Below, piece after piece: positions 9,144 through 38,136 of a stretch of 64,000 bases of DNA (its first letter is position 1; every line of letters begins with the position of its first letter). The notes beneath the pieces are model-generated. The model was given only the letters and a program-made list of their open reading frames with translations, was not told where the DNA came from and ran no database searches. The DNA comes from a virus, in IMG/VR virus record IMGVR_UViG_3300010371_000034, positions 14,778 through 78,777 of that record; one strand, written 5' to 3'. A program made the translations under genes and the position numbers.

Positions 9144-10250
9144 CTAGTTGAGCACCACGATGCTGCTTACTTGCGAGCCGGCAGCGTCGGGCAAGGTAAC
9201 GAAGTTGTCAAGAATCGGTTTGCCGTCCTGCCGCAGCCACACCCGGAACATCGCTTGGTTGCGCTGGAAGGCGCTGGTGTTTGTCGAGTACGGCGCATGC
9301 TCGGACACGTCGATCACCACCTGCATCCGGTCGCCGATCGCGTACAGCGACGGGTCGGTCAGGATCAGGTCGCCCTTGGTGCCGATAGCCGGCAGCTTGT
9401 CGGTGACGTACAGCGGCCGGTTGGCCAGGTATCCCACGCACTCATCGGCGTCGTCCCGCCGGTTGATGTTCGGTATGTAGCCGGTGATCCCTATGATGTC
9501 GGCCAGCGCCGTCACCGAGCAGCACCATATCGCGTTGGCCCAGCCCATCGGCAGCAGCATGGCCACCATCGCCTTGACGTCGGCCTGAGCGATATGGTTG
9601 GAGCCAGCCCTGTTTTGCAGCAGCGCGCACGGGGCGTTTAGCATGCCCAGCGGCAGGGAGTTGGCCGCGCCCGTGCCGTTGAAGAACGCGTACTCCGCGT
9701 ACCACGCTCCCGCCTGTCCGAAGTTCTGTAGCAGCCGGTCATCGGCGCCAGGACCCATGTCCATCAGCAGTTGGTTGGAAGCGATCGCGTAGTACAGGTT
9801 GTCCCAGGCGTGCAGCGTCATTGAACGGAACTGCGGCTCGAACTCGTTGGCGCTGAGCAGCCCCATCTGGGCGCCCCAGGTCGACAGGATGCCGCCGAAG
9901 AACGGCACGGTGCCGGCGGCCTGCGCGGTGGTCGCGTCCAGCATCGGGCAGGTCATCTCCAGCGACGCCATCGGCTGCACGTGAGCCCTGCGATAGATGA
10001 TCGACCGCTCAGCCAGTGGCTTGATGAACCGGGCGGTGTAGTCCATCGGCACCAGCCAACCGCCGGCGGCGCCCGACAGCTCGTCGTTGGCGGCAGACTT
10101 CTGTACGGAAGTGTGGACGCCACCCTGCCGCTCGATCGCGTCGGGGTTGCCGCGCGCGACCGCCCGCAGGAACCCGCCGAAGGACTTGCGTTCTTCGGTA
10201 AGTCCTGAACCGTTGCGGGTCGGTACCGTTCTGTCGATGACTGCCGCCAT
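9144..10250 (-). CDS. second HK97-fold major capsid-like protein
   Basis: GGWLVP, EPQF, ASNQLL.D, F.NGTG...PLG, L..RP....LP..G.KGD, F..NQ..FR...R.DG.P. Confidence 0.85.
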   Translation of the reverse strand: MAAVIDRTVPTRNGSGLTEERKSFGGFLRAVARGNPDAIERQGGVHTSVQKSAANDELSGAAGGWLVPMDYTARFIKPLAERSIIYRRAHVQPMASLEMTCPMLDATTAQAAGTVPFFGGILSTWGAQMGLLSANEFEPQFRSMTLHAWDNLYYAIASNQLLMDMGPGADDRLLQNFGQAGAWYAEYAFFNGTGAANSLPLGMLNAPCALLQNRAGSNHIAQADVKAMVAMLLPMGWANAIWCCSVTALADIIGITGYIPNINRRDDADECVGYLANRPLYVTDKLPAIGTKGDLILTDPSLYAIGDRMQVVIDVSEHAPYSTNTSAFQRNQAMFRVWLRQDGKPILDNFVTLPDAAGSQVSSIVVLN

Positions 10251-10324: not shown

Positions 10325-11743
10325 TCAGTGCAGCACGACGAACGGGCTGATTTGCCACCCTTGGGCATCCTGAATCGGTTGCTGGAGCCAGGGCTTGCCG
10401 TCGCAGCGCGTGATAACCCTCCACATCAGCTGGTTGCTCTGGAACAGCACGTGCGGGCTGACGTCGATCTGCATGTCCATGCGGTTGCCGACCACGTACC
10501 GGCTGAAGTCCGACAGCATCACGTCGCCCGTGGTGCCCAGCGTCGGCAGGCACTCGGTTAAGTACACCGGCAGGCCGTTGAAGAACACCATCGGCAGCTT
10601 CATCGCGGCCGGCCCGACCTGCCCGTTGCCGAACGGGCTGACCCAGATCAGCTGGTTGCGGGTAGAGTTGTCCACCATCTGCGCCAGCTCCGGCAGCACG
10701 CTCTGGTGCATGATCCAGCAGGCGGTGTCCCAGCTCCTGATCTGCGCGTGCGCCATCATCGCGCAGGCGTCGGCGTACTTGAAGTGTCCGGGGGTCGTGC
10801 GGCCCTGGAGCAGCGTCGCGGGACTGTTGATGATGCCCAGCGGCATCGAGGCGCCGGCACCGAGGCCCTGGAGGAAGGCGTACTGCTTGTAAAAGCCGAT
10901 GCCCCAGCCGAACAGCTGTGTCAGCAGCGCGTCCAGGCCGATGCCGTTGTCGGCGAGCAACTGGTTGGAGGAAACCGTCACGCCCACCAAGTCCCACGCG
11001 GTCCAAGTTGACTGGCGGAACTGCGGCTGCGTCTGGTTGTAGGTGACCGCCTCCGGCTGCCACTGGAACAGGATGCCGCCGCCGTAGGGCGTGGTGCCCC
11101 GGCTCTGCGCGGTCATGATGTCCAGCATCGGCAGGTCCATCGTCCTGCTGTTCATCGGAATCTGCTTGCACCGCTGCTCGACGAAGGCGTCCTCGCCCGC
11201 GATCGTCTGGAGCTCGGCCATGAACTGCGGCGGGATTGTGTAGCCGCCGGCCATGCCGCTGTTCTCGGCCAGCGCGGTCTTGCGGCGCTCGTTGAGCAGC
11301 ACCTTCTTGGTCCGCGGGTCCCAGCCGGGGACGCCCTTCTCCTTGGCCTTGACCACCGGCGTGCAGCCGTATTGCGCCTCAAGCTTGTCAGCGTCGTAGT
11401 CGCTGGCCCAGTCCGGCAGGTTGCGGGCGTACGCCATCGCGTCCTTGTCGCCGGCCAGCGCGGCCATCTTGATGAAGCACGGACCCATGCCGCTGAGCCG
11501 CTTCTCCTTGCCCGCGGTCAGGTGGTTGACCGCCGCGGAAGCGTAGGCGCCGCCCAGGTTGGCGTACTTGTATTTGTCCACTTCCCACGGGCCGGGAGCC
11601 TCCTGCGCGAATCCGGTGAACAGGCCGCGGGGATCGACCCCCTTGGCGGGAGTGCGCTCCATCTCGTCCAGGCGCTTGGTCAGAGCCTTGGTCATCTCGA
11701 CCGAGCCCATGATCAGTTTGGTTTCTTCGGCGGTCAGAGCCAT
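10325..11743 (-). CDS. major capsid protein (HK97 fold) with N-terminal scaffold/delta domain
   Basis: GGYTIPP, QPQF, VSSNQLLAD, GLPV....LP.LG..GDV, FQSNQ..WR...R.DGKP; GGGGAG RBS before ATG 11743. Confidence 0.92.
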   Translation of the reverse strand: MALTAEETKLIMGSVEMTKALTKRLDEMERTPAKGVDPRGLFTGFAQEAPGPWEVDKYKYANLGGAYASAAVNHLTAGKEKRLSGMGPCFIKMAALAGDKDAMAYARNLPDWASDYDADKLEAQYGCTPVVKAKEKGVPGWDPRTKKVLLNERRKTALAENSGMAGGYTIPPQFMAELQTIAGEDAFVEQRCKQIPMNSRTMDLPMLDIMTAQSRGTTPYGGGILFQWQPEAVTYNQTQPQFRQSTWTAWDLVGVTVSSNQLLADNGIGLDALLTQLFGWGIGFYKQYAFLQGLGAGASMPLGIINSPATLLQGRTTPGHFKYADACAMMAHAQIRSWDTACWIMHQSVLPELAQMVDNSTRNQLIWVSPFGNGQVGPAAMKLPMVFFNGLPVYLTECLPTLGTTGDVMLSDFSRYVVGNRMDMQIDVSPHVLFQSNQLMWRVITRCDGKPWLQQPIQDAQGWQISPFVVLH

Positions 11744-11762
11744 CTGTCGTCTCCCCTTTGTC

Positions 11763-11814
11763 AAAAGAAAAACCCGCGTTGACCGGCACCGTGCGGTGCA
11801 GCCATTCGCGGGTT
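11763..11814 (-). terminator. intrinsic terminator/attenuator-like hairpin in capsid leader
   Basis: AACCCGCG...CGCGGGTT stem followed by TTTTCTTTT just upstream of the MCP RBS. Confidence 0.5.
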
Positions 11815-11871
11815 CTGCGGGAGTCGCCACCAGGCGGGCCGCCGATAGTCCGTGTTCGGGTGTGTTGTCTT

Positions 11872-12054
11872 CTACTTCGCTTCCACCTTGCTCTCTATCC
11901 ACGTCCGCCTGACGCAGCCCTCGTTCATCACGGCCCGCCAGGCTATCTCGCCGGTCACCTTGTCGGCCCGGCGGTTGATCAGGTCGCGCAGCACGGTCTC
12001 CGCCAGCTTGCGCTCCTGCTCGGTCGCCATCTTCAGCAGTTGGTCCATCGCCAT
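11872..12054 (-). CDS. hypothetical protein (MAMDQLLK...)
   Basis: TAATG coupling with upstream gene. Confidence 0.45.
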   Translation of the reverse strand: MAMDQLLKMATEQERKLAETVLRDLINRRADKVTGEIAWRAVMNEGCVRRTWIESKVEAK

Positions 12055-12386: not shown

Positions 12387-12585
12387 GTTGCCTCGCTATC
12401 ATCGCCCTGGCCAGCTGCGCCCCCACCGCTCTCGCAGTGCAGCTGGTCGCGTACCTGGCGGCGAAACCCACTTCTCGTTTTATTCCGACCCCCGTAAGAC
12501 TGCCGGTCATCACGTCGGCGTATACCCGGCCCCACAGCACCTGCCAGCCTGGCAGCACCGGCACGCCTGGGTATCTGTCCGTCAT
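12343..12585 (-). CDS. hypothetical protein
   Basis: ATGA overlap with protease stop. Confidence 0.4.
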   Translation of the reverse strand: MTDRYPGVPVLPGWQVLWGRVYADVMTGSLTGVGIKREVGFAARYATSCTARAVGAQLARAMIARQHAAVAKKTDLERAP

Positions 12586-15500
12586 CGCCGGCTCCCGTTG
12601 AGGCCGACACGCTTGACGGTAGTCTCAAGCTCCATCGCGGAGTCCCGCAGCATGTCGAACAGCGCCTTCTGCTCTTCGTTGGTCGATTCCTCGGCCTTCT
12701 GCTCGGTCTCGGCGCCGGCTTCTTCCTTCTCCTCCTCCGGCTCGTCCTCCTTGGTCTCCTCCGGGTTGCCCATGTCGTTGAGGGCCTTCTTCAACCGCTT
12801 GGCGTTGTAGGACAGCGCGTCCTTGTGGTGTTCGGGAACGTCGGGGGCGCCCTTGAGCGACTGCATGTGGTCCAGCGCCTTGCCCATCGCGGCCTCGTGC
12901 GTGCCGTCCTCCAGCCCCTTGGCCAGCGCGTCGCCGTGCATGTCCAGCGCGGACTTGTGGTGCTCCGGCATGTCGTGCGCCACGGCCATGCCTTTCATCG
13001 CCGCGGACACTGACTTGATCGTCTCGGCGTGCTCCTCCTTCAACTCGGCGGGGTTGCCCTCGTCGTGCAGGTCGCCCATCGCGCCCTTGCCGCTGTCCAG
13101 ATTGCCGGGGTCGGAGACGGAGGACTTGCGGCGGAGTGATTTATATGCGGGGGATTTTCCAATCTTTTTGTCATCATGACCGTCTTCATATCCTGTGTTA
13201 TAGTCTTGAAATTCCCTTGTACCATTTTTGTATGGATTATTATGAATTTTACCACCATATCCAGCAACATAACCTGCCTTGAAAGCAGTGTCCAATGCTT
13301 TCTGCGCATGCCTCGGCAGCACCAGCCACTTGCGGCCGTCGCTGCCCGACTTGACCACGCCGCCCGCCGCCAGCACCTTGGCCACCTTCGCGGCCGACGC
13401 CTTGCGCGTGCCCCAGCGGCCCTTTTCGTTCTGGTAGCGCTCCAGTATCTCTTCAGTCGACGGATCGGATTCCTCCGCCTCGTCGCCCAGCGCTCCCTGG
13501 TGCTCTGGCTCGGCTGCTTCCTCGGCCGCCCACTCCGGCGAACCGATCTCGGACTTGTCCTCCTCGCCCTCCAGATCAGCCTGCAGCGCGTCATCCTCTT
13601 CCATATCGACCTCGCCGCCCAGGTCCATGTCCACTTCGGGAATCTCCCCGCGATCGACCAGGTTGGCCTCGCCCACTTCCTCGTTGGTGGTGTCGCTCAA
13701 CCCCTTGCCGACCTCCTCGATGTCCTTCTCGCTGTGCTCGCCGAACATCGCCTTCAGCGACTCGGCCCGCTCGCCCAGCGACGCCAGGTGCTCGGTCAGC
13801 GCCTTATGCGCCTTGTTCTCCGCGCCGGTCTGCGGGTCAAACGGAGTGATGTCCTTGAGCGCCTCGGTCAGGTAGTCGCGGTCGGACTTGGCGGACTGGT
13901 ACAGGTGAGCCATCGCCACTTCGTGGGGCGCGACGTCCATCGGGGCCGGGTCGTCGCTTTGCACCTCGGCGCCATCGTCGACCGATTCCTTCTGCACTCT
14001 CGTCTTCATGTTCTTTCTCCCGGCCAGCAGCTCCTTCGCTCCGTCCACCCAGCCAGCGTCCCAGTCCTCGCGGTACTGCGGGCCGCGGCCCTCGTTGTCG
14101 TTCTTGTAGGGGTTGGTGCTGCGGGCGCGGCCATCCCACGCGGCGACGTAGCCTTGGTCGTATTGGGTGTCCATGTCCTTGCGGCGGTTGAACGACTTCT
14201 TCAACCACACTTGCAAGGTATCCTTTGTACCTATCTGCCGTGGGTTAGGCACGCTGGCCAGATACCCGCCTAGTTTGTAATCCTCACTGTCCTCCGGCTT
14301 ATCATATAACCAGTCGACCAGCTGGTCGTACTCGCCGTCGGACATCGTCACCCGCTTGCCGGCCTTCAGGTCGAGCCACTTGCTGCCCAGTCCCGACTTC
14401 TGCGCGATGTACCCGCCCGACGCGCCGGAGGTCTCGCCAAGCGATTTTTCAACCTTTCCATCATTCACTTCCGCAATCGTTTCTCCATGCTCATTTTCAA
14501 TACTCACGCCGAATGATGGTTGCAATTCTTCTTCCATCTTTATTGCAGCGACAATAGCTTGCTGTTCTGAGCCGTTTACCGTTTTAGTTCCTTTGGAGGA
14601 AACTAAACGGTAACGATTTTTTTGCACCAGTCCTTTTGCCTTCCCGCCGCTGCCGTCGTCCAGGCCGTTCAGCCAGTCCTTGCCCGCCGGAGTGTGCGGA
14701 TCGTAGGGGCAGTCCCCACTGGACTTGCCACGCTTTCCCGCGGCGAACCCCTCGCGGTACTCCTTGCTGCCGTAGTCCTTCCGCAGCGCCTTCTCCCTTC
14801 CGGTACCGCCGCAAGCCGTGCATTCGATCATTTCGCCGTTGCCGCTCCTGACCCATCCACGACCTTTACAGCGTTTACAGGGGTCTACGCCAGCTTTCAG
14901 TACCTTCGTCACCCGCGCCATCGACCCCTTCGCCACCGCCCGGCCGTCGGCTCGGTGCGCGACGTGGATCGGTCCCTGCTTGGTGCGGTAGGTGGCGATG
15001 TATCCCTTGCCCACCCGTCGCAGCAGGCTCTTCTTGCCGCACGCCGCGCCGAACATGCCGCGCTGCGCCTCGGTCAGCGGCTGGCCGTTAGCCTCACCGT
15101 CGCGGAGGATTTGGCAGGCGTCCGAGGAGGTGATCTCTTCAGAGGGTTGCGCCTTGGTCATATCGATCTCCCCCTCGCCGCGGCCGTGGTCCATGTCGGC
15201 CTGGACGAGGGCCTTGTGCCGCTTCCACAGCGCTTTCGCCTTGCCGCACGGGCAGGCGTCGCCCTTGGAGCAGGCGGAGCAGCCGCAGGATTTGCGCGTA
15301 ACTTCACGGCTCTTGATCTGCTGTTGTTTCGGCATCGGACACCACCCCGTGAAGCAGCCGCCGGATTCGTTGGTCGATTTGATCGCGCACGTGCCGCGGA
15401 TGCACTTCTCCATCCGGTTGCTGATGTGGCCATGCTCCTTGTCCGCGATGTCCCGCCACTCGCACATCTTGTCGTGGCAGTCGCGGCACCAATCCTTCAG

Positions 15501-16154
15501 CTCGGCCGGCGCGGACTTGTACCACTTGGGTTGCACCGTGGCGAACGGGTTGCTGGGCACGCCGACCCAGCTGCCCTCGGTCTCGTCCCACCGGATGAAG
15601 TCGTATCCGCCAATGTCGCCTTGGTGCTGGTGCGCCTTGACCCGTTCCTTGCGCTGCGCCTCGATCGGCACGAACGCTACGGAGGTGGCGTTGACGAACC
15701 CGCGGTCAACCTTGCCCTTGAGGAAAGCGGCGTCCGGGTCCACCATGTCCCACCAGCACCACTGCTGCATCCGGTTCTCTTCCGGGAAGCAGCACAGCCG
15801 GCCGTCCGGCGACATCGCCTTGCCCACCGGTATCTGCCACTCCTGGTGCCCGAAGAACCACACCGGGTTCCTCTGGTAGTTCCCAAGGTAGGCGCCCATC
15901 GGGTGGACCGTGTCGCCGACCCGGTCCTCTTCAAGGCTGACCAGCGTAGCGACCGTGTACTGCTCCTTGCGGTCTTCGGCGCCCGTCACCCCGCTGCGGC
16001 CGTATCCCAGCACCGCCGAACCGTCTGGAGAGTCTTTGTAGATGTAGCAATAGTTCTCGACCAGCGACTTGGTCGACAGCGAGCCATCGCGCAGCGCCTT
16101 CTCGATCGCGCCGCGGCGGGAGGCCACGTCAGCTACGGATGGGTGTACCAGCAA
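12582..16154 (-). CDS. HK97-type prohead protease with ~950-aa modular C-terminal extension
   Basis: DRVGD.V.P.G....Y.RNPV.FFGH...PVGK, G...ATSVAF.P, E.SWVGVPSNP.A in first ~210 aa; acidic scaffold-like stretch and small modules after. Confidence 0.85.
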   Translation of the reverse strand: MLVHPSVADVASRRGAIEKALRDGSLSTKSLVENYCYIYKDSPDGSAVLGYGRSGVTGAEDRKEQYTVATLVSLEEDRVGDTVHPMGAYLGNYQRNPVWFFGHQEWQIPVGKAMSPDGRLCCFPEENRMQQWCWWDMVDPDAAFLKGKVDRGFVNATSVAFVPIEAQRKERVKAHQHQGDIGGYDFIRWDETEGSWVGVPSNPFATVQPKWYKSAPAELKDWCRDCHDKMCEWRDIADKEHGHISNRMEKCIRGTCAIKSTNESGGCFTGWCPMPKQQQIKSREVTRKSCGCSACSKGDACPCGKAKALWKRHKALVQADMDHGRGEGEIDMTKAQPSEEITSSDACQILRDGEANGQPLTEAQRGMFGAACGKKSLLRRVGKGYIATYRTKQGPIHVAHRADGRAVAKGSMARVTKVLKAGVDPCKRCKGRGWVRSGNGEMIECTACGGTGREKALRKDYGSKEYREGFAAGKRGKSSGDCPYDPHTPAGKDWLNGLDDGSGGKAKGLVQKNRYRLVSSKGTKTVNGSEQQAIVAAIKMEEELQPSFGVSIENEHGETIAEVNDGKVEKSLGETSGASGGYIAQKSGLGSKWLDLKAGKRVTMSDGEYDQLVDWLYDKPEDSEDYKLGGYLASVPNPRQIGTKDTLQVWLKKSFNRRKDMDTQYDQGYVAAWDGRARSTNPYKNDNEGRGPQYREDWDAGWVDGAKELLAGRKNMKTRVQKESVDDGAEVQSDDPAPMDVAPHEVAMAHLYQSAKSDRDYLTEALKDITPFDPQTGAENKAHKALTEHLASLGERAESLKAMFGEHSEKDIEEVGKGLSDTTNEEVGEANLVDRGEIPEVDMDLGGEVDMEEDDALQADLEGEEDKSEIGSPEWAAEEAAEPEHQGALGDEAEESDPSTEEILERYQNEKGRWGTRKASAAKVAKVLAAGGVVKSGSDGRKWLVLPRHAQKALDTAFKAGYVAGYGGKIHNNPYKNGTREFQDYNTGYEDGHDDKKIGKSPAYKSLRRKSSVSDPGNLDSGKGAMGDLHDEGNPAELKEEHAETIKSVSAAMKGMAVAHDMPEHHKSALDMHGDALAKGLEDGTHEAAMGKALDHMQSLKGAPDVPEHHKDALSYNAKRLKKALNDMGNPEETKEDEPEEEKEEAGAETEQKAEESTNEEQKALFDMLRDSAMELETTVKRVGLNGSRR

Positions 16155-16882: not shown

Positions 16883-17109
16883 TTCGCCTCCGCCATGTAG
16901 ACTCGCATCCCGCAGCTAACTGGTTGATTTGCGGCATCTGTGCCGGCAGTCGGGCAGCCGACGCACGGCCGCGGGCCGAAGCCTGGGTCTATCCTCGTCT
17001 GGCACTCCGACCTTCTGCACCGGACCACTCGACCGCACGACGGGCACCTGCCGACCATGACGTCGTCGGGGTCACCTTGCGGAGCAGAGTTCGTGGTATT
17101 CCTCAGCAT
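16879..17109 (-). CDS. small Cys-rich (Zn ribbon) protein
   Basis: CPSC...C..CP...CG; GAGG RBS. Confidence 0.5.
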   Translation of the reverse strand: MLRNTTNSAPQGDPDDVMVGRCPSCGRVVRCRRSECQTRIDPGFGPRPCVGCPTAGTDAANQPVSCGMRVYMAEAK

Positions 17110-17899
17110 GTCGATTCCTCAGTTTGTCCAGTGCGCAATGCTTGATCTGCCGCACGCGTTCCTTGGTCAGGTGCAGCGCGTCGCCCAGCTGCCGCAGGGT
17201 CTTGCCGTTCATGTAGTACCCGACCAGTATCCGCCGCTCGACAGAGCTTATCACGCGGGAATGTAGCACCATCTCGGTCGCCTCGTAGTTGACCTTGTGC
17301 TCCTCCCCAACCGTCAGCCAGTAGTCGGCCGGCTCGTTCTTGGCGATGTCGGTGTCGTAGCAGTCCACCATCGGCGCCAGCACCCTCTCAGCGGCCTCCA
17401 CAGATACCATCAGCTTCTTGCGAAGCTTTTCGCCCGCCTGCTTCCTCTTGATCAACTTCCACAGGTAGTCCGGCACCCGCACCTGGTTGTCGTGCGACGA
17501 ACGCTGCCTCCGCGCCTTCAGCATCTCCGTCGCGATAGCCTTGCTGGCGTAGGTGATGAATTTGACCGGCCTGCCGTCCTTGATGAAATCGCCCCTGTAG
17601 TTGTAGATCGCCGCTATGACAGCCAGATTGCCCTCGGACACCATGTCCAGCATCTCCTGCTGGCCGCACCTGTTCAGCCTGGTAGCTATCGACACCACCA
17701 GCGGTAGGAAGCTGACCATCACTCGGTTCCTGGCCGCGACGCCCTCGGCGGCCAGCTCGCTCAATTCGACGCACGGCCTGCCGCGCTCGCTCAGCTGCTT
17801 TTCTGCCGTCCTGCCAGCCTGCGCCTGCTCTATCAGCGGCACCAGCTGCTCCTGCGGAATCTGCTCCAGGTTGTTGAGCTCGCTCATGTACTCGCGCAT
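17072..17899 (-). CDS. RNA polymerase sigma-70 family factor
   Basis: region 1.2 MREYMSEL; region 2 ARNR...LPLVVSIA...DMVSEGN...KFITYA; VRVP; region 4 TLRQLG..L.LTKERVRQI...AL.KLR. Confidence 0.92.
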   Translation of the reverse strand: MREYMSELNNLEQIPQEQLVPLIEQAQAGRTAEKQLSERGRPCVELSELAAEGVAARNRVMVSFLPLVVSIATRLNRCGQQEMLDMVSEGNLAVIAAIYNYRGDFIKDGRPVKFITYASKAIATEMLKARRQRSSHDNQVRVPDYLWKLIKRKQAGEKLRKKLMVSVEAAERVLAPMVDCYDTDIAKNEPADYWLTVGEEHKVNYEATEMVLHSRVISSVERRILVGYYMNGKTLRQLGDALHLTKERVRQIKHCALDKLRNRHAEEYHELCSAR

Positions 17900-17927
17900 T
17901 GGTGTCCCTCTCCGTTGCGTGGATTGG

Positions 17928-18620
17928 TTAGGTATACCCAAAATGCGGGCATATCCCACCGTTCTGCCTTTTACCCCAGTTACAGTTAGCGCACAGCACT
18001 TGAAACCCTTCAGGAAACTTATGCCTCTTTAGCCACAGGTATAAAGCACCGCTACCTATCTCCCTACGATGAACTGCGCCATCGTTTTCAACATGGTCTA
18101 TCTGTAGAAACAAAACCTCCGTCTCGCCGCAGCAATTGCACCTATACCCACCATACGCGGCAAATACATCGTCCTTTAATTTCCTACCCCGTTTAATGTA
18201 ATAGTCTTTGCATTGCTGGCAGTGCTTCGTTCCAGATACTATATCACTCGATCCACATTTCAGGCATTGTTTGTTTTGTAGTCGTTTCTTTCTACGTTCC
18301 TTGTGGCAATCCAAGCCTCTCTGCCGACATACCAGACACCTTTTCTTTCCCTCTGTCAATTCCCTACCACACTGAGGGCAGATTCCAGTACCAACCCTTC
18401 TCTTCTTCCTGGTATGGTAATACTTCTTTGATTTTTGTAAGCATGATTCGCATATATCCTTGCCGTTGCTACGATCATGCGCCGTACAGCATTTTGGACA
18501 TTTTCCGGCTGCCACCCGCCTAGCATATCTACCAGAGTCTCTTTTCTTTTGTTTACCTAGACAAGCCCAGCATAATCCACCTTCCCTATCAACCGACTTT
18601 CCACAGTGCAAGCAATTCAT
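17928..18620 (-). CDS. free-standing HNH homing endonuclease with N-terminal CxxC repeats
   Basis: AYGG.RCNCCGE....LQIDHVENDG...LCANCN; AT-rich relative to flanks. Confidence 0.85.
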   Translation of the reverse strand: MNCLHCGKSVDREGGLCWACLGKQKKRDSGRYARRVAAGKCPKCCTAHDRSNGKDICESCLQKSKKYYHTRKKRRVGTGICPQCGRELTEGKKRCLVCRQRGLDCHKERRKKRLQNKQCLKCGSSDIVSGTKHCQQCKDYYIKRGRKLKDDVFAAYGGYRCNCCGETEVLFLQIDHVENDGAVHRREIGSGALYLWLKRHKFPEGFQVLCANCNWGKRQNGGICPHFGYT

Positions 18621-18640
18621 TACCGGCGTCTCCCCCGGTT

Positions 18641-18710
18641 GTCTCAAGTGTAGCGGTGGAAGGCGGTGAGACTTACCGCTTTGTCGGGTGCCCCCTATCC
18701 ACCACTATAC
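18641..18710 (-). ncRNA. structured RNA motif copy 1 upstream of HNH gene
   Basis: 12/13-bp outer stem, TAGG..CCCGA core, GCGGT/ACCGC hairpin whose GTCTCA can pair with downstream TGAGAC. Confidence 0.55.
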
Positions 18711-18712
18711 AG

Positions 18713-19580
18713 TCAATCAATTTCCTCTTGAGTCGTGCAAAAGCAGAAAGGGATGAGCCGGAGGGTAAAGAATTACCGCATACGGCCCCCCTTTCTGATC
18801 TACGTGAAACGGTTCTCCGATGTTGACCGTCTTGCCATCCAGCGATAGGCATTGTTCGCACGCGTCCGCGCTGGCCAGCCAGCTGTGCCGCTTGACTCCC
18901 GCCTCTACTGCCGCCATCATCTGCCCTCCATGCACGGCGCGCGAGCCCTCGGTCGCCGCTATACGAAACGCTCGCATGGGGTCCGCGAAGATCATCCGCA
19001 CCTTCTTGGCCAACAAAGCCACCGCGTCGCCCTGCGGCAAGCCCTCCCGCATCAGCCTGCGCAGGTCGTCCAGCGCATCGCCTAGCTCGCGTGTAGCCGT
19101 CTCGTTGGTCTCCCGGCAGAACGCATAGGCGGCTGCGTCGACCGCGTCCAGCACCTTAGGGTTGAACAGGTCGAACGAGAAGCCCAGGTCCTCTGTCTTG
19201 CGCTGGCCCGACGCCTTGCAGACCAGCCGCTTGCGGACCAGCGTGAGCATTGGAGCTGACCGCTGCTCCATCCTGGGGCCAAAAATCGACTCATTGCCCG
19301 GCTGGTGCCTGCGCATGCCGTCCATGCTCGGCGCGGGAACCCGCGGCATGTCCGCCTCGGCACGCTTGCCCAGCTTCGCCGCGATCCTGGCGGACGCCTG
19401 CACCATCCCCTGCTGCCACATCTCCAGCAGCAGCGGCTTGACGGCGTCGGCGGTCGCGCGCACCCAGCCCGACGTGTCCGGCGGCGGGTCGCCCGGCCGC
19501 ACCTTTGACAGCACGTCCCGCGCCTGCTGCTGGTACAGCAGGTTGAGCAGTCGCATCAGCTTGGTCGGGTTGTTGCTCAC
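18713..19580 (-). CDS. MuF/SPP1 gp7-like minor head protein; last codons require a +1 shift near 18748
   Basis: RA.RIA.TE.SRA...G, W.AS.DAC..C..LDG, PPAHP; the terminal CxC (FCFCTT) lies in the +1 frame. Confidence 0.85.
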
Positions 19581-22130: not shown

Positions 22131-22259
22131 TCACTTCCTGACTTCTTTGGGTATGCTCGGCCCGCCGTGGCAGGCGGCGCACAGCAGCTTGCCGCTGTTG
22201 TTGCGGATCAGCACGCCGCGCCTGCCGCAGTTCTGGCACTTGCCGTAGGTCGAGGCCAT
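22131..22259 (-). CDS. 42-aa Zn-finger-like peptide (MASTYGKCQNCG...LCAACH)
   Basis: translated by hand; GGAG RBS; below ORF-track cutoff. Confidence 0.5.
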   Translation of the reverse strand: MASTYGKCQNCGRRGVLIRNNSGKLLCAACHGGPSIPKEVRK

Positions 22260-22260
22260 A

Positions 22261-22557
22261 TCACAACTCCATCAATTCCATTATAGCGACCAGCAGGGCC
22301 GAGGTCCGGTTGCGCCGGGTTATGTCCTCGTCCCTGTAAAAAGGGGCGTAGAACCGCTCGCTGCCGGAGCTAGGGCCGTAGAGGACGCGGTTGGCATCGG
22401 GGGTCGAAGGCGGCACGATGTAGCCGCCTGACGCGCCGGAAGACTCCTTCAGGCTGGGCTGGACGATGACCGGCTGGGATGGTGGCGGAATCACGCCGGC
22501 GGCATATCCCTGCGTCACCAGCTCGTCGCTCAGTAGTCCTTGAACAATGACGAACAT
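22261..22557 (-). CDS. hypothetical virion-associated protein (MFVIVQGLLS...)
   Basis: TGATG coupling; contains capsid-like SGASGGYIVPP motif. Confidence 0.55.
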   Translation of the reverse strand: MFVIVQGLLSDELVTQGYAAGVIPPPSQPVIVQPSLKESSGASGGYIVPPSTPDANRVLYGPSSGSERFYAPFYRDEDITRRNRTSALLVAIMELMEL

Positions 22558-22670
22558 CAGGAGGCCGCCTTGTATCCCTGGGTGATGACGAAGCTGTAGA
22601 CGACCGGGCCACCGGCGTACCCCTGGGAGAGCAATCTGGGCGACAACAGTCCCTGCACCACGATGCACAT
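22557..22670 (-). CDS. 37-aa peptide paralogous to the next gene's N-terminus (MCIVVQGLLSPRLLSQGYAGG...)
   Basis: hand translation; fills the gap exactly between flanking genes. Confidence 0.55.
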   Translation of the reverse strand: MCIVVQGLLSPRLLSQGYAGGPVVYSFVITQGYKAAS

Positions 22671-27427: not shown

Positions 27428-27979
27428 TTAAACCCGCTCCACCTCGGACACCTTGCCATCGTCCGAGTGCCTGACCACCAGTCGCGTGGGCCTCTCCATC
27501 TTCTCCATCCGCTTGACCAGCCCCGCCAGCGTCGCGATCATCTCCCTATTGGACCGCTCGATCGCACCCATCGTATCGGCGTTGGCCTTGACGAAGGACT
27601 TGACCAGCTGCTCGATCGACTCCGACAGCGCGATCCCTTGGCTTTCGATCGCGTCGACCACGCCTGAGAAATCCACCACGGCGTCTGCCGGCTTGACCGT
27701 CACCTCGTTGACCGGCTGCATCACCGCAATCGATGCGCTCAGTTGCTTGATCGCCTCCAGCACCACCCCCTGGTCCACCGCTACGCGCTCGTTGTGGAGC
27801 AGTACGTCGGCCAATCCCTTCTCGATACCGTCGGCTAAGCTCTGCTGGTCCACCACCGGCCGGTCGGCCTGGTATTCAAGTGCGTTCAGGCGCTTGACCA
27901 ATGGCTGGAGCACCCGCTCCTTGATCGAGTCCACCAGCGCCTTGACCTTGACGCCGTCGCTGACGGTAATCGCGCTCAT
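27428..27979 (-). CDS. coiled-coil hypothetical protein
   Basis: ATGA overlap with portal stop. Confidence 0.55.
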   Translation of the reverse strand: MSAITVSDGVKVKALVDSIKERVLQPLVKRLNALEYQADRPVVDQQSLADGIEKGLADVLLHNERVAVDQGVVLEAIKQLSASIAVMQPVNEVTVKPADAVVDFSGVVDAIESQGIALSESIEQLVKSFVKANADTMGAIERSNREMIATLAGLVKRMEKMERPTRLVVRHSDDGKVSEVERV

Positions 27980-30900
27980 AGCACCCCCTCCAGCATCTTG
28001 TCGATCTCCTGGCGACAAGCCGCGTACTCGTCTTGCTCCTTCAGCCGCGGCCGCAGTCGCTTGCCCGCCAGCGCCCCGTGCACGCCCCTGATCGTCTCGG
28101 CGACTGCAACCACGGCCGCGATGTTGCCCGGTATCGGCATCGTCGCCAGCATGCCCACGGCCATCGCCAGCGCTCCCTTGCGCCCGTAGCGGCTCTCAAG
28201 CGACAGCCACTTGTCGGCAAGCCACCTGCCGGCCTGCTGGACCGACAGCGCCTTGGCCCGCATCTCTCTGGTGGCCGGGTAGACGCGGTCCCGCTTCTCC
28301 GCATCGTACAGCTCGCGCAGGTGGAACTGCACCTCGACGACCATGCCGCAGGGCGTCCGGTAGTTGCGCAGCATGTCCCGGTAGCCGCCCTGGAGCGGCT
28401 GCGCGAACCGGTCCTTCTGCCGCACCAGCACCAACCGCCCGTCGATCTCCTCGGCCGCGTCCCGCAGCTCTTGCTCGGTGTCTCTAACCACCGACGCCCG
28501 CACCACGTCCAGCAGCCGCGACCAATCGCCGCCGTAGTCCCGCTCGACCTTCTCCTCGGCCCGCTCAAGCGACTTGATCGGAACCTGCACCGCGCCTTCG
28601 ACGCCTTGCAGCGCCCGGTCCAGTTCGCCCTGCGCCTGGACCACCAGCGCGTACAGCTCCTCCGGCTTGTCCACCGGCTGCTTGACCATCTCGCCGCCAC
28701 GCTGCTCGACCTCGGCCAGGATGTCCGGCCAGGGGGAGCGGCCGTCTATCGCCCGGTCGTCCACGTACAGGTCCGCCACGACCTTGGCGCTGGCTCCCGC
28801 GGGCTGGTCGCTGTTGGTGTTGATCGAGTCGTATTCTATCCCGCTGCCGTCCAGCTGGTCCTTGATCGCCTGCACGTCGCCGCGGGTCGTCCACACGATG
28901 ATCTTCCATCCCCGGTTCCGCAGCGCCGCCAGCGCCTCCCGTGCCCCGTCGCGGACCTCGCCGAAGTGCCCCTCGCCCCGCCAGCCGTCGTACTCCAGGA
29001 TCGTGCCGTCCAGGTCCACGGCCACGGTCTGCTGGTGCTTGTAGACGGTCCAGCCCTTGCGCACCAGCTGCTTGCTCGGCTTGCCGTTTGGCTTGTCAAT
29101 CTTGCCGCCGTCGGCCTGCGCCTCTTCGACTTCTTGCGCTTGCTCGTTCGCGTCGTCGGCCTTGCCGCTGTCGCTGACTTCCTCGCTGGGCAGGTCCTCG
29201 TTTGACTCCACCGTGCCCAGCTTGTCGGAGTCTTTGCCGGCTGCCATCGACTCGGAGTACTGCCGCACAAGGTCGGTCAGGTCGTCCCCCTTCTCCTCGA
29301 CGTTGACCGGCGCTGGCATCGGACCGCCCGGACCCTGGACCCACGGGTTGTCGCCGCCCATCGCGTATGGCTTGCGGCCGCGCAGCACCCGGACCTCGTT
29401 GGTGGTGATCGCGGGCGGGCTGGCCTGCATGTCCACTTGGAGGTCGCTGTTGACCTGCGCGGGGTCTGCCGGCGTCAGGTTGTCGTACCATATCCTTGCC
29501 TCGCGGACGCCGCCCGACCCGCCGTGGCCCGACCCGGTCAGACTGGACCACGCGGGAGTCTCCTCGTCGAACTCCTTGGCAAGGTGCTTGGTCTCGACTT
29601 CGCCCTCCTGGGCCAGCAGGGGGTTCAGGCCGTTCTCGCAGTTTCCAGTAACGTGAACCTTGCCATTTCTGCGCACGAAGAACAGACCTGTCGGCACCGT
29701 TACACACCACACCGTGCCGTCGTACTCAACGGTGCTGCGCATGTCTGGTGATAGCACAACCTCTTGCCTGGTTGATACGTCAACGCGGTACGCTACCTTC
29801 CTGTCGCTGCGTGGGTCTGGTTGTACACATACAGTTGCAGAGAATCCACACTTGACTGCGATCTCTGCAACGTCATCAGCAAGTTGCTTGCTAACCGTCT
29901 TGTAATTGGAGCTAGAGTTGCCGGTGTTCTCGCAGTCCATCCATGCGTGCCCGTCTCCTTCCATAAGAGCATCAAACAGTACCCTCAAGTCCTCAGCCGA
30001 CCATGACTTTACCTCTTCAGGAACGCGCTTGTTCTGGGAACCAATGCCTAGTGATACTAAGTAGTCATAGATTCCCTTGTCGCTCGCTTTCCAAGTGTGG
30101 CAACTGGTGTCTCTAGGGTCAACCTTGTCTGTCCACTTTAGTGGCAGCGCAAGGATTCCTGCCTTTACTGACTCAAACGTTCTTGTTGATTTCTCTGATT
30201 GCGTAATACATATTCCCCACCCTCCGTTCGTCCTGTCGCAAAGATGCCCCTCACTCAGGTAGAGGCCAAGAAACCGCAACCACACCTTCCTGTCTACGCA
30301 CCTGTCGTCCAACTCATGCACTATATTCCTGCTACCGCATGGGTTGTATGATGGGAATGACACGTACTTCGGCGGGTCAGTTGCTCCTATTAGCGGTGCC
30401 GACCTCTTTATCCTGTACGTCGTGGCAGGCGTCATGTCGTCTATCTTGATCGTTTCCCAGGGGTAGTTCAGGTGTTTCCTTGACGCAGCCGGGAACCGCT
30501 GCAAGTGTACCCGATGCCCTGGAGTCATGCAGGCGTCAACGCGCTGCCCTTGCCACAGGTGCATCGGCCCCTTATACGGCTCAACGACGATCCTAGACGG
30601 TTTGTGGTACACCATGCTCTGGGATGCTTGATCGTAGCAAGCGACCACAGTATCGTCAGTCAACTCCCAGCACTTCTTCCAACCACAGTCAGTCAAGCAC
30701 TCCGTGTCATCATCCAAGCACCAGCCGGCCAGCGTCGCCAGCACCGAGCCGAACGTCATGTCTTGCACCATGCCAAGTGCAGCTTGAGGCGTGCCAAAGC
30801 CGGCGCAGATCGCCTTGGCCATCTGGTCGAACCCCTCCATGTAGGCCATGTCGGTCGGGGAGAACGACAGCGGGGTGACCACCGTGCCGCTGGGGGTGAA

Positions 30901-37483: not shown

Positions 37484-38136
37484 GCCACCACCTCGTGCCT
37501 GTCGACCACGCTCAGAGGGGCCAGCGCGGCGGTCCTTTGCGCCACCGCCCGCCACAGGTCCGGATGGTCCTCAAGTACTTCCCGCACCGCATCTTTTATC
37601 GCCGCTATCACCGCCAGCGCCTGCTCCAGCGTCACCAGCCCCGGTTTGCACTCGTCCAGACCCAGCAGTTCGCGCTCCGCCTCCAGCGTCCGCATGATCG
37701 TCGTCAAGTAGGAGTTGTCCGGCAGCCGCCCTTCCTTGGTCACTATCTTCTTCAGCAGCACCTCGCTGGTGATGTAGTCCTCGACCCCCACCGCCTCGCT
37801 GTCCGTGCCGTACTCCTCGACCAGCTTGTGCGAGTCCTCCATGCTGCGGTCGTATGCCAACCACGCCTCGCGTCTGATCTCCCGGTACTGTTCGATCTTC
37901 GTGTTGACCTCGTCCTGCCGCTCCTTCAGCCGCGCAGCCTTGTACTCCGCCCGCAGCTGCTTCAGGTACACGCTCACCTGGACGTTGGTGATGTTGATCC
38001 CGTTCGACCGCTCCAGCTCGTCCCGCACCTGCCACAGCGAGTAGCCGCGGCGGTCCAGCTTGGCCACCAGCGCCTTGACCTCCTCACGCTGCGTGTTGGA
38101 GAACTTCGGTCCACGCTTCTGTTGTTCGCCGGCCAT
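37480..38136 (-). CDS. terminase small subunit (putative)
   Basis: N-terminal HTH, R.ELLGLD motif, directly upstream of terL. Confidence 0.7.
   Translation of the reverse strand: MAGEQQKRGPKFSNTQREEVKALVAKLDRRGYSLWQVRDELERSNGINITNVQVSVYLKQLRAEYKAARLKERQDEVNTKIEQYREIRREAWLAYDRSMEDSHKLVEEYGTDSEAVGVEDYITSEVLLKKIVTKEGRLPDNSYLTTIMRTLEAERELLGLDECKPGLVTLEQALAVIAAIKDAVREVLEDHPDLWRAVAQRTAALAPLSVVDRHEVVA

What the first reader, a model, noticed from the sequence alone, without database searches (positions are those of the whole stretch)
12582..15500. Prohead protease is a polyprotein of Lys-delimited cargo modules, including three RMF-like units
Seen: after the protease domain come short modules bounded by K-rich junctions (KALRKD, LVQKN, VEKSL, AQKSG, KKSFNRRKD, AQKAL, YKSLRRKS). 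Three modules share the pattern Y..G..AG..G.....(C/N)PY......(W/Y)..G(W/Y).DG (about 14777-14647, 14174-14030, 13298-13165). Several modules are abruptly AT-rich, suggesting plug-in acquisition. Known: this pattern is that of ribosome modulation factor (GY.AG..GRS...CPY.....W..GW), and HK97-type proteases cut after Lys. Inference: maturation releases small proteins inside the head for ejection, possibly ribosome-hibernation mimics. The fold could have another function.
Basis: partly seen in the sequence, partly recalled or inferred. Interest (0 to 1): 0.85.

Follow-up and report, generated by a model that had tools for sequence, protein, structure and literature searches.

The report
Phage head protease carrying swappable cargo
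An uncultured phage fuses its head-maturation protease and scaffold into one 1190-residue protein strung with small exchangeable domains, three of them relatives of the bacterial ribosome-silencing factor RMF. Each domain is flanked by probable protease cut sites, so it looks like a way to load ready-made small proteins into the phage head, though no experiment has tested this.

Summary
ORF 12582-16154 (minus strand, 1190 aa) lies between a MuF-like head gene and two HK97-fold capsid genes in a 78.8-kb, about 94% complete viral contig.

- **Protease:** residues about 60-210 are a prohead serine protease. His103 and Ser158 are invariant in 23 relatives, and the model matches T4 gp21 and herpesvirus proteases at Z 8.2-8.3.
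- **Scaffold:** the last roughly 470 residues are acidic and helical, so scaffold-like.
- **RMF units:** three RMF-like units are real. Pfam RMF gives E 1e-11, and a profile of the three hits only RMF chains in the PDB (E 1e-7).
- **Junctions:** K-(A/S)-L occurs 13 times against 1.0 expected, far above any other ORF in the window. It is 5-6.5-fold enriched across the family and resembles the predicted capsid maturation sites.
- **Foreign cassettes:** two cassettes have GC3 of 0.13-0.33 against about 0.9 elsewhere. One is a complete 56-aa domain that elsewhere exists as free-standing small proteins.
- **Relatives:** about 25 relatives keep the two ends but shuffle the middle (Zn ribbons, AAA ATPase, YajC-like).

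Cleavage, retention in the head and ejection are inferred. Ribosome silencing is doubtful: units 2 and 3 lack most of RMF's rRNA-contacting basic residues. The scan's unchecked notes report similar RMF/KOW cassettes in T4-like phages.

The parts
12582..16154 (-). Whole polyprotein ORF (1190 aa plus stop): protease, cargo string and scaffold
   Evidence: Single open frame with GC3 about 0.8-1.0 outside the two cassettes. About 25 long relatives of 650-2000 aa were found.
15519..15977 (-). Prohead serine protease core (residues about 60-212), catalytic His103 and Ser158
   Evidence: 34% identity to the annotated prohead protease of Bacillus phage Flasso. D77, R78, G80, D81, H103 and S158 are invariant in 23 relatives. 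Pfam Peptidase_S78 hits 4 relatives. AF2 pLDDT is about 90. VIA-align gives Z 8.3 to T4 gp21 (5jbl) and VZV protease, and 8.2 to HCMV protease.
15285..15518 (-). Family-conserved extension after the protease (residues 213-290), ending in a Cys/Trp motif
   Evidence: Conserved in all 23 aligned relatives; G265, G270, W271 and C272 are nearly invariant.
15222..15290 (-). Cys-rich knot (residues 289-311)
   Evidence: The same CxC..C..C.C pattern recurs at different positions in relatives.
15030..15155 (-). Mobile 42-aa helical module (residues 334-375)
   Evidence: AF2 pLDDT about 88. It is 59-78% identical to copies located anywhere from residue 305 to 1241 in relatives, including two proteins that lack the protease.
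14790..14885 (-). Zinc-ribbon module (residues 424-455)
   Evidence: phrog_26056, E 1e-4. Similar CxxC-GxG ribbons occur in relatives.
14619..14789 (-). RMF-like unit 1 (residues 456-512), native GC, keeps the CPY motif
   Evidence: Pfam RMF 31.4 bits on its own, above the 27.9 cut-off. Direct phmmer hit to RMF 2jrm. ESM Atlas nearest clusters are RMF at 0.87, a score the tool rates as a lead only. AF2 gives helix-loop-helix at low confidence.
14445..14618 (-). AT-rich cassette 1 (residues 513-570; low-GC DNA about 14440-14640): a complete 56-aa domain of unknown function
   Evidence: GC3 0.30-0.33. 54 homologues were found, most of them free-standing proteins of 57-70 aa aligned from their Met to their end. 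It is 67% identical, junctions included, to a copy in a protease-less scaffold protein, P0029.
14397..14444 (-). Copy of the capsid maturation site plus N-arm motif (residues 571-586)
   Evidence: G577, G580, G581 and Y582 are invariant in the family. The same K-x-L-x-E-x-SG..GGY motif occurs in both capsid genes here and in relatives' capsid genes and polyproteins.
14196..14396 (-). 67-aa module (residues 587-653), unknown function
   Evidence: Shared with P0005 at a different position. AF2 predicts it partly helical.
14004..14195 (-). RMF-like unit 2 (residues 654-717), NPY variant with a longer loop
   Evidence: Pfam RMF 21.4 bits. Orthologous units are present in P0003, P0004 and P0006.
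13299..14003 (-). Acidic helical scaffold-like region A (residues 718-952)
   Evidence: Net charge -33. Long helices at 743-823 have pLDDT about 90. It is conserved in most relatives and in the protease-less P0029.
13140..13298 (-). RMF-like unit 3, which is AT-rich cassette 2 (residues 953-1005; low-GC DNA about 13140-13305)
   Evidence: GC3 0.13, the deepest GC trough in the 64-kb window. Pfam RMF 19.9 bits. phrog_26995, E 3e-11. Relatives carry other modules in this same slot, and P0004 carries another RMF-like unit there.
12585..13139 (-). Scaffold-like region B (residues 1006-1190) with three 44-aa repeats and a conserved C-terminal helix
   Evidence: Repeats spaced 132 nt apart at 12813-13112. 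Confident helices at 1041-1127 and 1156-1182. Conserved in relatives. The capsid-targeting role is inferred by analogy with the HK97 protease.
10328..11743 (-). Major capsid protein 1 with an N-terminal delta domain of about 155 residues; presumed substrate
   Evidence: Pfam Phage_capsid, E 5e-29. An invariant R-K-x-A-L-A-E-x-SG..GGY motif sits at the delta/mature boundary in 7 orthologues.
9144..10250 (-). Second HK97-fold capsid protein with a short N-extension; presumed substrate
   Evidence: Pfam Phage_capsid, E 3e-17. It has a K-S-A..SG..GGW motif.

Best explanation
The gene encodes a head-assembly polyprotein with three parts. The first is an N-terminal HK97/S78-type prohead serine protease. 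The last is a C-terminal acidic helical scaffold whose end probably docks it inside the procapsid. Between and within these lies a string of small self-contained domains of 50-80 aa: Cys knots, a zinc ribbon, three RMF homologues, and a 56-aa domain that elsewhere is a free-standing protein.

Each domain is flanked by Lys-(Ala/Ser)-Leu or K-S-L-R-R-K type linkers that resemble the maturation sites of the two capsid proteins.

Proposed mechanism:
1. The polyprotein co-assembles with the capsid protein.
2. The protease activates inside the closed procapsid and cuts after these lysines.
3. This removes the capsid delta domains, dismantles the scaffold and frees the small domains as pieces of 6-9 kDa.
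4. Folded pieces that cannot escape stay with the DNA as internal head proteins and enter the host at infection.

The cassettes are exchanged between phages together with their flanking sites.

Shown here: the domain identities, the family architecture, the motif enrichment and the foreign composition of two cassettes. Inferred: the cleavage, the retention in the head, the ejection, and what the RMF-like pieces do.
For: **Protease.** Invariant His103 and Ser158. Peptidase_S78 hits in relatives. Fold match to T4 gp21 and herpesvirus proteases at Z 8.2-8.3. Herpesvirus proteases are also the Foldseek top hits. A phage prohead protease matches at 34% identity.

**Position.** The gene lies between MuF-like and sigma-factor genes and two capsid genes. 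It sits directly upstream of the capsid gene in relatives' loci.

**Architecture.** 23 relatives share the first ~275 residues, and most also share the acidic tail. Their middles differ and include RMF-like units, AAA ATPase, YajC-like, DUF7895 and Zn ribbons.

**Junction motif.**
- K[AS]L occurs 13 times against 1.0 expected in this ORF (z 13). The next best real gene, the portal, has 3 against 0.8.
- Across the family, KAL occurs 82 times against 12.5 expected and KSL 58 against 8.8. R[AST]L and E[AST]L are not enriched.
- KS[LMF][RK] is 13-fold enriched.
- Ends of local homology fall within 8 residues of a K[SA] in 51% of cases against 33% at random.
- The same motif marks the delta/mature boundary of the capsid proteins. 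HK97 cuts its capsid protein at K103/S104 (PMC10275583).

**Cassettes.**
- GC3 is 0.13-0.33 against about 0.9, and the low-GC DNA includes both flanking junctions.
- Cassette 1 equals a whole free-standing small protein.
- It recurs with its junctions in a protease-less scaffold next to an RMF-like unit.
- The slot of unit 3 holds different modules in relatives.

**RMF homology.**
Against: - No proteomic or structural data exist, because the phage is known only from a metagenome. Cleavage is inferred from motif statistics and analogy.
- Several K[AS]L motifs lie inside confident helices of the scaffold (for example K784, K1092, K1123). These may be ordinary helix sequence rather than cut sites.
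- One K-S site (K477) lies inside RMF unit 1.
- Family counts are not independent, because conserved sites are counted in every relative.
- In HK97 the protease and delta-domain fragments leave the capsid, so pieces of 6-9 kDa might also escape rather than be retained.
- P0001 itself does not reach Pfam Peptidase_S78 at E <= 1.
- The scaffold label rests on charge, helicity, position and conservation. No scaffold family matched.
Confidence: 0.6

Rival explanations
1. The modules are disposable scaffold filling. They set the volume, charge or length of the internal scaffold and are cut up only so that the debris can leave before DNA packaging. Nothing is delivered to the host.
For: In HK97 the protease and delta-domain fragments exit the procapsid (my own knowledge of the HK97 literature). 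Many motifs fall in the scaffold helices, as expected for simple dismantling. Most modules have no recognisable enzymatic function.
Against: Filling would not need complete, autonomous domains that also exist as free-standing genes. It would not need AAA ATPase domains or repeated fresh acquisition of foreign cassettes.
Confidence: 0.25
2. The released RMF-like pieces are injected and bind host 30S subunits at the RMF site, silencing or re-programming host translation at the start of infection.
For: RMF homology is genuine. Unit 1 passes the Pfam cut-off alone, keeps the CPY motif and keeps basic residues at the positions of K2, K5, R6, R11 and R24. Three units per chain multiply the dose. Other modules in the family (KOW/SH3-like, Zn ribbons) are also typical small RNA- or ribosome-binding folds.
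Against: Units 2 and 3 keep only 2 and 1 of the five named rRNA-contacting residues, and W44-R45 is altered in all three. Net charge is +2 to +4 against +7. RMF acts one per ribosome, and a capsid can carry only some hundreds of copies (inference). Some phage genes here have SD-like leaders that an anti-SD blocker would also hit (weak). RMF-like small ORFs in cultured phages are all unannotated.
Confidence: 0.15
3. The polyprotein is an expression device. The small domains act in the producing cell late in infection, for example on ribosomes or chaperones, and the fusion only ensures their co-production with head proteins.
For: Free-standing versions of the same domains exist in other genomes, so their function does not require a capsid.
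Against: Prohead proteases of this fold are active only after assembly (established for HK97 and T4; my own knowledge), so release would happen inside the shell. The flanks mimic capsid maturation sites. The tail that is conserved with the cargo is scaffold-like.
Confidence: 0.08
4. The long ORF is an artefact: a chimeric assembly or a run-on of separate genes.
For: The two AT-rich patches could in principle be mis-joined reads.
Against: The patches are in frame and have no stops. They encode recognisable domains with their junction motifs. About 25 independent contigs encode the same architecture at 650-2000 aa.
Confidence: 0.02

Closest known systems
HK97 gp4 prohead protease (MEROPS S78, Pfam PF04586) and its capsid-targeting C-terminus
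   Same: It has the same fold class and a His/Ser dyad. It sits just upstream of an HK97-fold capsid gene that has a delta domain. Cleavage is probably after Lys, as at HK97 K103/S104. The C-terminal part is presumed to carry the enzyme into the procapsid.
   Different: HK97 gp4 is about 225 aa with no cargo. Here about 980 further residues follow, with a scaffold-like region and exchangeable domains. The query itself is too divergent to reach the Pfam model; only relatives do.
Phage lambda gpC/Nu3-type protease-scaffold fusions, and protease-capsid fusions (as in the PHROG 10 profiles)
   Same: Protease and scaffold functions lie in a single reading frame in the head gene cluster.
   Different: Those fusions carry no string of foreign small domains between the two functions. 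Lambda's protease belongs to another family (my own knowledge, not tested here).
T4 internal proteins IPI-III and Alt (capsid targeting sequence removed by gp21), and phiKZ/SPN3US inner-body proteins
   Same: The logic is the same: proteins are loaded into the prohead core, trimmed by the prohead protease at a short motif, kept in the head and ejected into the host.
   Different: Those are separate genes, each with an N-terminal tag, cut at L/I-x-E or S/A/G-x-E. Here the cargo is concatenated with the protease and scaffold, and the motif is Lys-based.
Polyvalent proteins of phages and conjugative elements (Iyer et al. 2017, PMC5512222) and MuF-fused toxins
   Same: They are large multi-domain proteins encoded among head genes. 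They are proposed to be packaged and delivered with the DNA, sometimes with a built-in peptidase, and their domains shuffle between elements.
   Different: Those are built on MuF, portal, ArdC, methylase or zincin-peptidase cores with mostly enzymatic effectors. That paper does not mention RMF and mentions 'prohead' once. Here the carrier is the maturation protease plus scaffold, and most cargo is tiny non-enzymatic domains.
Ribosome modulation factor (RMF, PF04957) and the Rmf/CrpP family of mobile-element proteins (NF041886)
   Same: The G-Y-x-A-G..G....(C/N)-P-Y....W..G-W core is shared, with a likely helix-loop-helix. Only RMF chains are hit in the PDB.
   Different: The units are embedded in a phage structural polyprotein rather than being a free 55-aa stationary-phase protein. 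Most rRNA-contacting arginines are lost in units 2 and 3, and the charge is much lower. The Rmf_CrpP model is below its cut-off (22.2 against 28).

Membership tests
Prohead serine protease, HK97/S78 type (PF04586) | Significant match to the family profile | tested here: inconclusive
   P0001 has no PF04586 hit at E <= 1. Four close relatives hit it at E 9e-7 to 3e-5. tblastn gives 34% identity to an annotated prohead protease.
Prohead serine protease, HK97/S78 type (PF04586) | Conserved catalytic His and Ser | tested here: met
   H103 and S158 are invariant in 23 sequences, as is the upstream D-R-x-G-D motif.
Prohead serine protease, HK97/S78 type (PF04586) | Herpesvirus-assemblin / T4 gp21 fold | tested here: met
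   VIA-align gives Z 8.3 (rmsd 3.0, 120 aligned) to T4 gp21 5jbl, Z 8.3 to VZV protease and Z 8.2 to HCMV protease. These were ranks 1-3 of 48,161 chains. Z values near 8 are borderline by the tool's own note.
Prohead serine protease, HK97/S78 type (PF04586) | Gene placed between portal/MuF and the major capsid gene | tested here: met
Ribosome modulation factor (PF04957 / NF011162) | Score above the curated cut-off | tested here: met
   The whole protein scores 45.2 against 27.9 and 41.7 against 40. Unit 1 alone scores 31.4. Units 2 and 3 alone score 21.4 and 19.9, below the cut-off.
Ribosome modulation factor (PF04957 / NF011162) | Two-helix fold with a roughly 13-residue linker | tested here: inconclusive
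   The AF2 model of unit 1 has helices 7-19 and 32-44 but a mean pLDDT of 56.5. Foldseek ranks 1-2 are RMF chains, but with E > 1.
Ribosome modulation factor (PF04957 / NF011162) | Basic residues that contact 16S rRNA (R3, K5, R8, R11, R15 of E. coli RMF; bioRxiv 10.1101/382572) | tested here: not met
   Alignment with E. coli RMF shows unit 1 keeps 2 of 5, unit 2 keeps 2 of 5 and unit 3 keeps 1 of 5. Net charge is +4, +2 and +2 against +7.
Ribosome modulation factor (PF04957 / NF011162) | Binds the 30S subunit and drives 100S formation | not testable with these tools
   This needs biochemistry, and the host is unknown.
T4-type internal proteins | N-terminal capsid targeting sequence cut by a gp21-type protease at L/I-x-E | tested here: not met
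   The protease is S78-like and the junction motif is Lys-based. E[AST]L is not enriched. The logic is shared, but this is not a member of that family.
Polyvalent proteins (Iyer et al. 2017) | Several effector domains in one chain, encoded among packaging genes, built on MuF, portal, ArdC or MTase cores | tested here: inconclusive
   The multi-domain chain in a head-gene context is met. None of the typical core domains was found by Pfam. The paper lists neither RMF nor S78 carriers.

The most novel reading that the evidence does not exclude
Phages of unrelated head-assembly lineages share a pool of tiny cargo cassettes (RMF-like, KOW/SH3-like, zinc ribbons, the 56-aa domain). They plug these into head polyproteins with flanks re-tuned to each lineage's protease: Lys-(A/S)-Leu here, and x-x-Glu in T4-like phages according to the scan's unchecked notes. 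The released RMF-like pieces would enter the host with the DNA and act on ribosomes before any phage gene is expressed.
Probability: 0.15. Interest if true: 0.9.

Novelty: new variant of a known kind. Interest (0 to 1): 0.72.

Why it matters
If the pieces are released and ejected, this is a compact, modular way for a phage to deliver a changing set of ready-made small proteins. A single gene would encode the address (scaffold tail), the release enzyme (protease) and the cargo. That would extend the T4 internal-protein idea to HK97-type phages. It would also give a sequence rule, K-(A/S)-L flanks next to an S78 protease, for finding virion-delivered proteins in metagenomes.

It would assign a possible role to RMF-like and other orphan small phage proteins. 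It would also suggest a natural scaffold for loading foreign proteins into capsids.

The processing claim is directly testable by co-expressing two or three genes. Even if the cargo is only filling, the family shows unusually clear in-frame cassette exchange between phages of different GC content.

Tried and rejected
- **Complex prediction:** capsid protein 1 against the last 151 residues of the polyprotein returned 'no answer'. This is no evidence either way.
- **The search for homologous proteins:** a search with unit 1 alone and a search with the region of unit 3 (shorter proteins) found nothing. The search is word-based and too insensitive for 55-aa domains.
- **The search for related loci:** searches with unit 3 and with cassette 1 in viral contigs found no close copy. 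The profile of cassette 1 was too variable to scan. No donor was identified.
- **tblastn of cassette 1 against cultured phages:** no match.
- **Pfam and ESM Atlas for the 56-aa domain:** no family.
- **Direct repeats bracketing the cassettes:** none were found; only the 44-aa scaffold repeats appeared.
- **Whole-chain AF2:** this left the RMF units and cassette 1 at pLDDT below 50, because the alignment is shallow there.
- **Intein or intron origin of the AT-rich patches:** rejected. They are 55-68 codons long, encode complete domains with free-standing homologues and lack intein motifs.
- **SD usage of the phage:** looked at briefly and inconclusive.
- **Literature:** searches found no paper on RMF homologues in phage heads or on protease-cargo polyproteins.
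Full report
**What is there.** The window comes from a 78,777-bp viral contig rated 94% complete. Its mean GC is 62%. On the minus strand a single frame runs from 16154 to 12582 and encodes 1190 codons. Upstream lie a MuF-like head-morphogenesis gene (18717-19580), a sigma-70-type gene (17072-17959) and a 1338-aa portal gene (27976-31992). Downstream lie two HK97-fold capsid genes at 10325-11902 and 9144-10250. The ORF therefore occupies the usual protease/scaffold position in a head gene cluster.

**The observation.** The three RMF-like units are also real.
- Pfam RMF scores 45.2 bits, E 9.9e-12, in three stretches.
- Scored singly they reach 31.4, 21.4 and 19.9 bits against a cut-off of 27.9.
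- NCBIfam's RMF equivalog scores 41.7 against 40, whereas the Rmf/CrpP subfamily model stays below its cut-off.
- A profile built from the three units alone finds only RMF chains among 177,635 PDB sequences: 2jrm at E 1e-7, 6h4n at 5e-5 and 4v8g at 7e-5.
- The ESM Atlas puts unit 1 nearest to RMF clusters, at a score (0.87) that the tool rates as a lead only.
- An AF2 model of unit 1 is helix-loop-helix, and its two best Foldseek hits are RMF. Confidence is low (pLDDT 56.5, E > 1), so the fold is only suggested.

Two modules are abruptly AT-rich. Codons about 505-572 have GC3 0.30-0.33 and codons about 951-1006 have GC3 0.13, against 0.8-1.0 elsewhere. The second is the deepest GC trough in the whole window.

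**The ends of the protein.** Residues about 60-210 form a prohead serine protease.
- They match the annotated prohead protease of Bacillus phage Flasso at 34% identity.
- The motif D-R-x-G-D, His103 and Ser158 are invariant in 23 relatives.
- Four relatives hit Pfam Peptidase_S78.
- The AF2 model is confident here, with pLDDT about 90.
- Its three best structural matches among 48,161 chains are VZV protease, T4 gp21 and HCMV protease, at Z 8.2-8.3.

The last roughly 470 residues are strongly acidic, with net charges of -33 and -16 for the two blocks. They are predicted as long confident helices and contain three 44-aa repeats. They are conserved in most relatives and also in P0029, a 559-aa protein without a protease domain. 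I read this region as a scaffold with a capsid-docking end. That reading is an inference from position, composition and analogy with the HK97 protease; no scaffold family matched.

**A family with a shuffled middle.** A database search found about 25 proteins of 650-2000 aa that share the first ~275 residues; most also share the acidic tail. Between these ends every member differs. The inserts include RMF-like units (7 units in 4 proteins), AAA ATPase domains (3 proteins), a YajC-like/SH3-like barrel, DUF7895, DUF2188 and zinc ribbons.

Individual modules sit at very different positions. The 42-aa module at residues 334-375 recurs at 59-78% identity anywhere between residue 305 and 1241 of other proteins. 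The slot just after the conserved D-G-R-K-W-L-V motif holds RMF unit 3 here. In P0004 it holds another RMF-like unit, and in P0003, P0005 and P0006 it holds barrel-like modules. In the viral contigs the polyprotein gene sits directly upstream of the capsid gene, and the host genomes range from 46 to 61% GC.

**The junction motif.**
- K-(A/S)-L occurs 13 times in this ORF against 1.0 expected from its own composition (z 13). No other real gene in the window comes close; the portal has 3 against 0.8.
- Across 23 family proteins KAL occurs 82 times against 12.5 expected and KSL 58 against 8.8. R[AST]L and E[AST]L are at expectation.
- KS followed by L/M/F and a basic residue is 13-fold enriched.
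- Ends of short local homologies between family members lie within 8 residues of a K-S/A in 51% of cases against 33% for random positions.
- The same kind of site marks the delta/mature boundary of the capsid proteins. An invariant R-K-x-A-L-A-E-x-SG..GGY is found in seven orthologues of capsid protein 1, with a related site in capsid protein 2.
- A copy of this site plus the N-arm motif sits in the middle of every polyprotein; G577, G580, G581 and Y582 are invariant.

HK97 cuts its capsid protein at K103/S104, just upstream of the equivalent N-arm (PMC10275583). Together this makes cleavage after these lysines the most economical reading, but it remains an inference. Some motifs lie inside scaffold helices, and the family counts are not independent.

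**The foreign cassettes.** The low-GC DNA of each cassette includes both of its junctions.

Cassette 1 (residues 513-570) has 54 homologues. Most are free-standing proteins of 57-70 aa that align from their first Met to their last residues. A few giant proteins carry it as a repeat. No family or function is known for it. Its closest copy, 67% identical with the junctions included, sits in the protease-less scaffold P0029 and is followed immediately by an RMF-like unit.

Cassette 2 is RMF unit 3. It matches an uncharacterised PHROG at E 3e-11.

The genome has about 19 low-GC islands. One group coincides with a LAGLIDADG intein-like insert in another gene, which shows that such patches here mark acquired mobile DNA. 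I found no donor and no bracketing direct repeats.

**How it most likely works.**
1. The chain is carried into the procapsid by its scaffold end.
2. The protease activates after assembly and cuts after the motif lysines.
3. This matures the capsid proteins, dismantles the scaffold and frees folded pieces of 6-9 kDa.
4. These pieces either stay with the DNA as internal proteins and are ejected, or escape.

I put about 0.85 on the architecture and cassette exchange, about 0.65 on cleavage at these sites, and about 0.35-0.4 on delivery into the host.

**Do the RMF units silence ribosomes?** Homology is clear, but the functional signature is weak. The E. coli 100S structure paper names R3, K5, R8, R11 and R15 as the conserved residues that bind the 16S backbone (bioRxiv 10.1101/382572). 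In a direct alignment with E. coli RMF, unit 1 keeps two of them (plus K2, R6 and R24), unit 2 keeps two and unit 3 keeps one. The W-R of helix 2 is altered in all three. Net charge is +4, +2 and +2 against +7. RMF-like small ORFs do occur in cultured phages of Burkholderia, Serratia, Vibrio, Pseudomonas and Brucella, but at weak E-values (0.02-0.9), and all are unannotated. I give ribosome targeting about 0.15. Unit 1 is the best candidate.

**Comparison with what is known.** The logic matches that of T4 internal proteins and phiKZ-type inner-body proteins, which are loaded, trimmed by the prohead protease and ejected. It also resembles the 'polyvalent proteins' proposed to ride in phage heads (PMC5512222). 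It differs in three ways. The carrier is the maturation protease fused to the scaffold. The cut motif is Lys-based. The cargo is mostly tiny non-enzymatic domains, including RMF homologues, which that paper does not mention. Literature searches found no description of such a family.

The scan's own earlier notes report RMF-like and KOW-like cassettes between Glu-type protease sites in head polyproteins of T4-like phages on other DNA. They are unchecked and I did not test them. If they are right, the same cargo pool is used by unrelated head lineages, each with flanks tuned to its own protease.

**Limits.** The phage is uncultured and its host is unknown.

Noticed in passing
window 35045-37555 (-), AT-rich patches 36034-37201: An 836-aa ORF carries LAGLIDADG_3 and Hom_end matches at residues about 359-430, and these coincide with low-GC patches. 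It is probably an intein or homing-endonuclease insert in a phage gene whose identity I did not determine.
   Followed up: partly
window 27976-31992 (-): The portal ORF is 1338 aa, but the Pfam portal domain covers only residues 177-416. The roughly 900-residue C-terminal extension had no Pfam hit at E <= 1e-3, so the HAD and RelA/SpoT domains suggested by a first-stage note were not confirmed at that threshold. It has 3 K[AS]L motifs against 0.8 expected.
   Followed up: partly
window 9144-10250 and 10325-11902 (-): There are two tandem HK97-fold capsid genes. The first has a delta domain of about 155 residues and the second has only a short N-extension. Both pairs are present in relatives (L004, L007, L016).
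   Followed up: partly
window about 22150-22560 (-): A 136-aa open frame contains another copy of the capsid N-arm/maturation motif (S-L-K-E-S-SG..GGY-I-V-P-P). It may be a further protease substrate or capsid-docking tag.
   Followed up: no
window 17072-17959 (-): A sigma-70-type factor gene (regions 2 and 4) sits inside the head-gene cluster, two genes upstream of the polyprotein.
   Followed up: no
window 17995-18532 (-), in ORF 17928-18647: A 540-nt low-GC island (minimum 0.38) covers most of a 239-aa ORF that has a weak double-zinc-ribbon match. This is another likely foreign insertion next to the head genes.
   Followed up: no
P0031 (3274 aa), P0035 (6141 aa), P0066, P0076: The 56-aa domain of cassette 1 also occurs as up to 12 tandem stretches in giant proteins of 3000-6500 aa of unknown origin.
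   Followed up: no
window 12813-13112 (-): There are three 44-aa helical repeats (a P-E-H-H-K motif) in the scaffold tail, spaced 132 nt apart.
   Followed up: no
L008 (IMGVR_UViG_3300039002_000011): The tblastn match to the polyprotein spans 3.5 kb, but the open frame with the protease is only 517 aa. In some relatives, protease and scaffold/cargo therefore appear to be split into separate genes.
   Followed up: no
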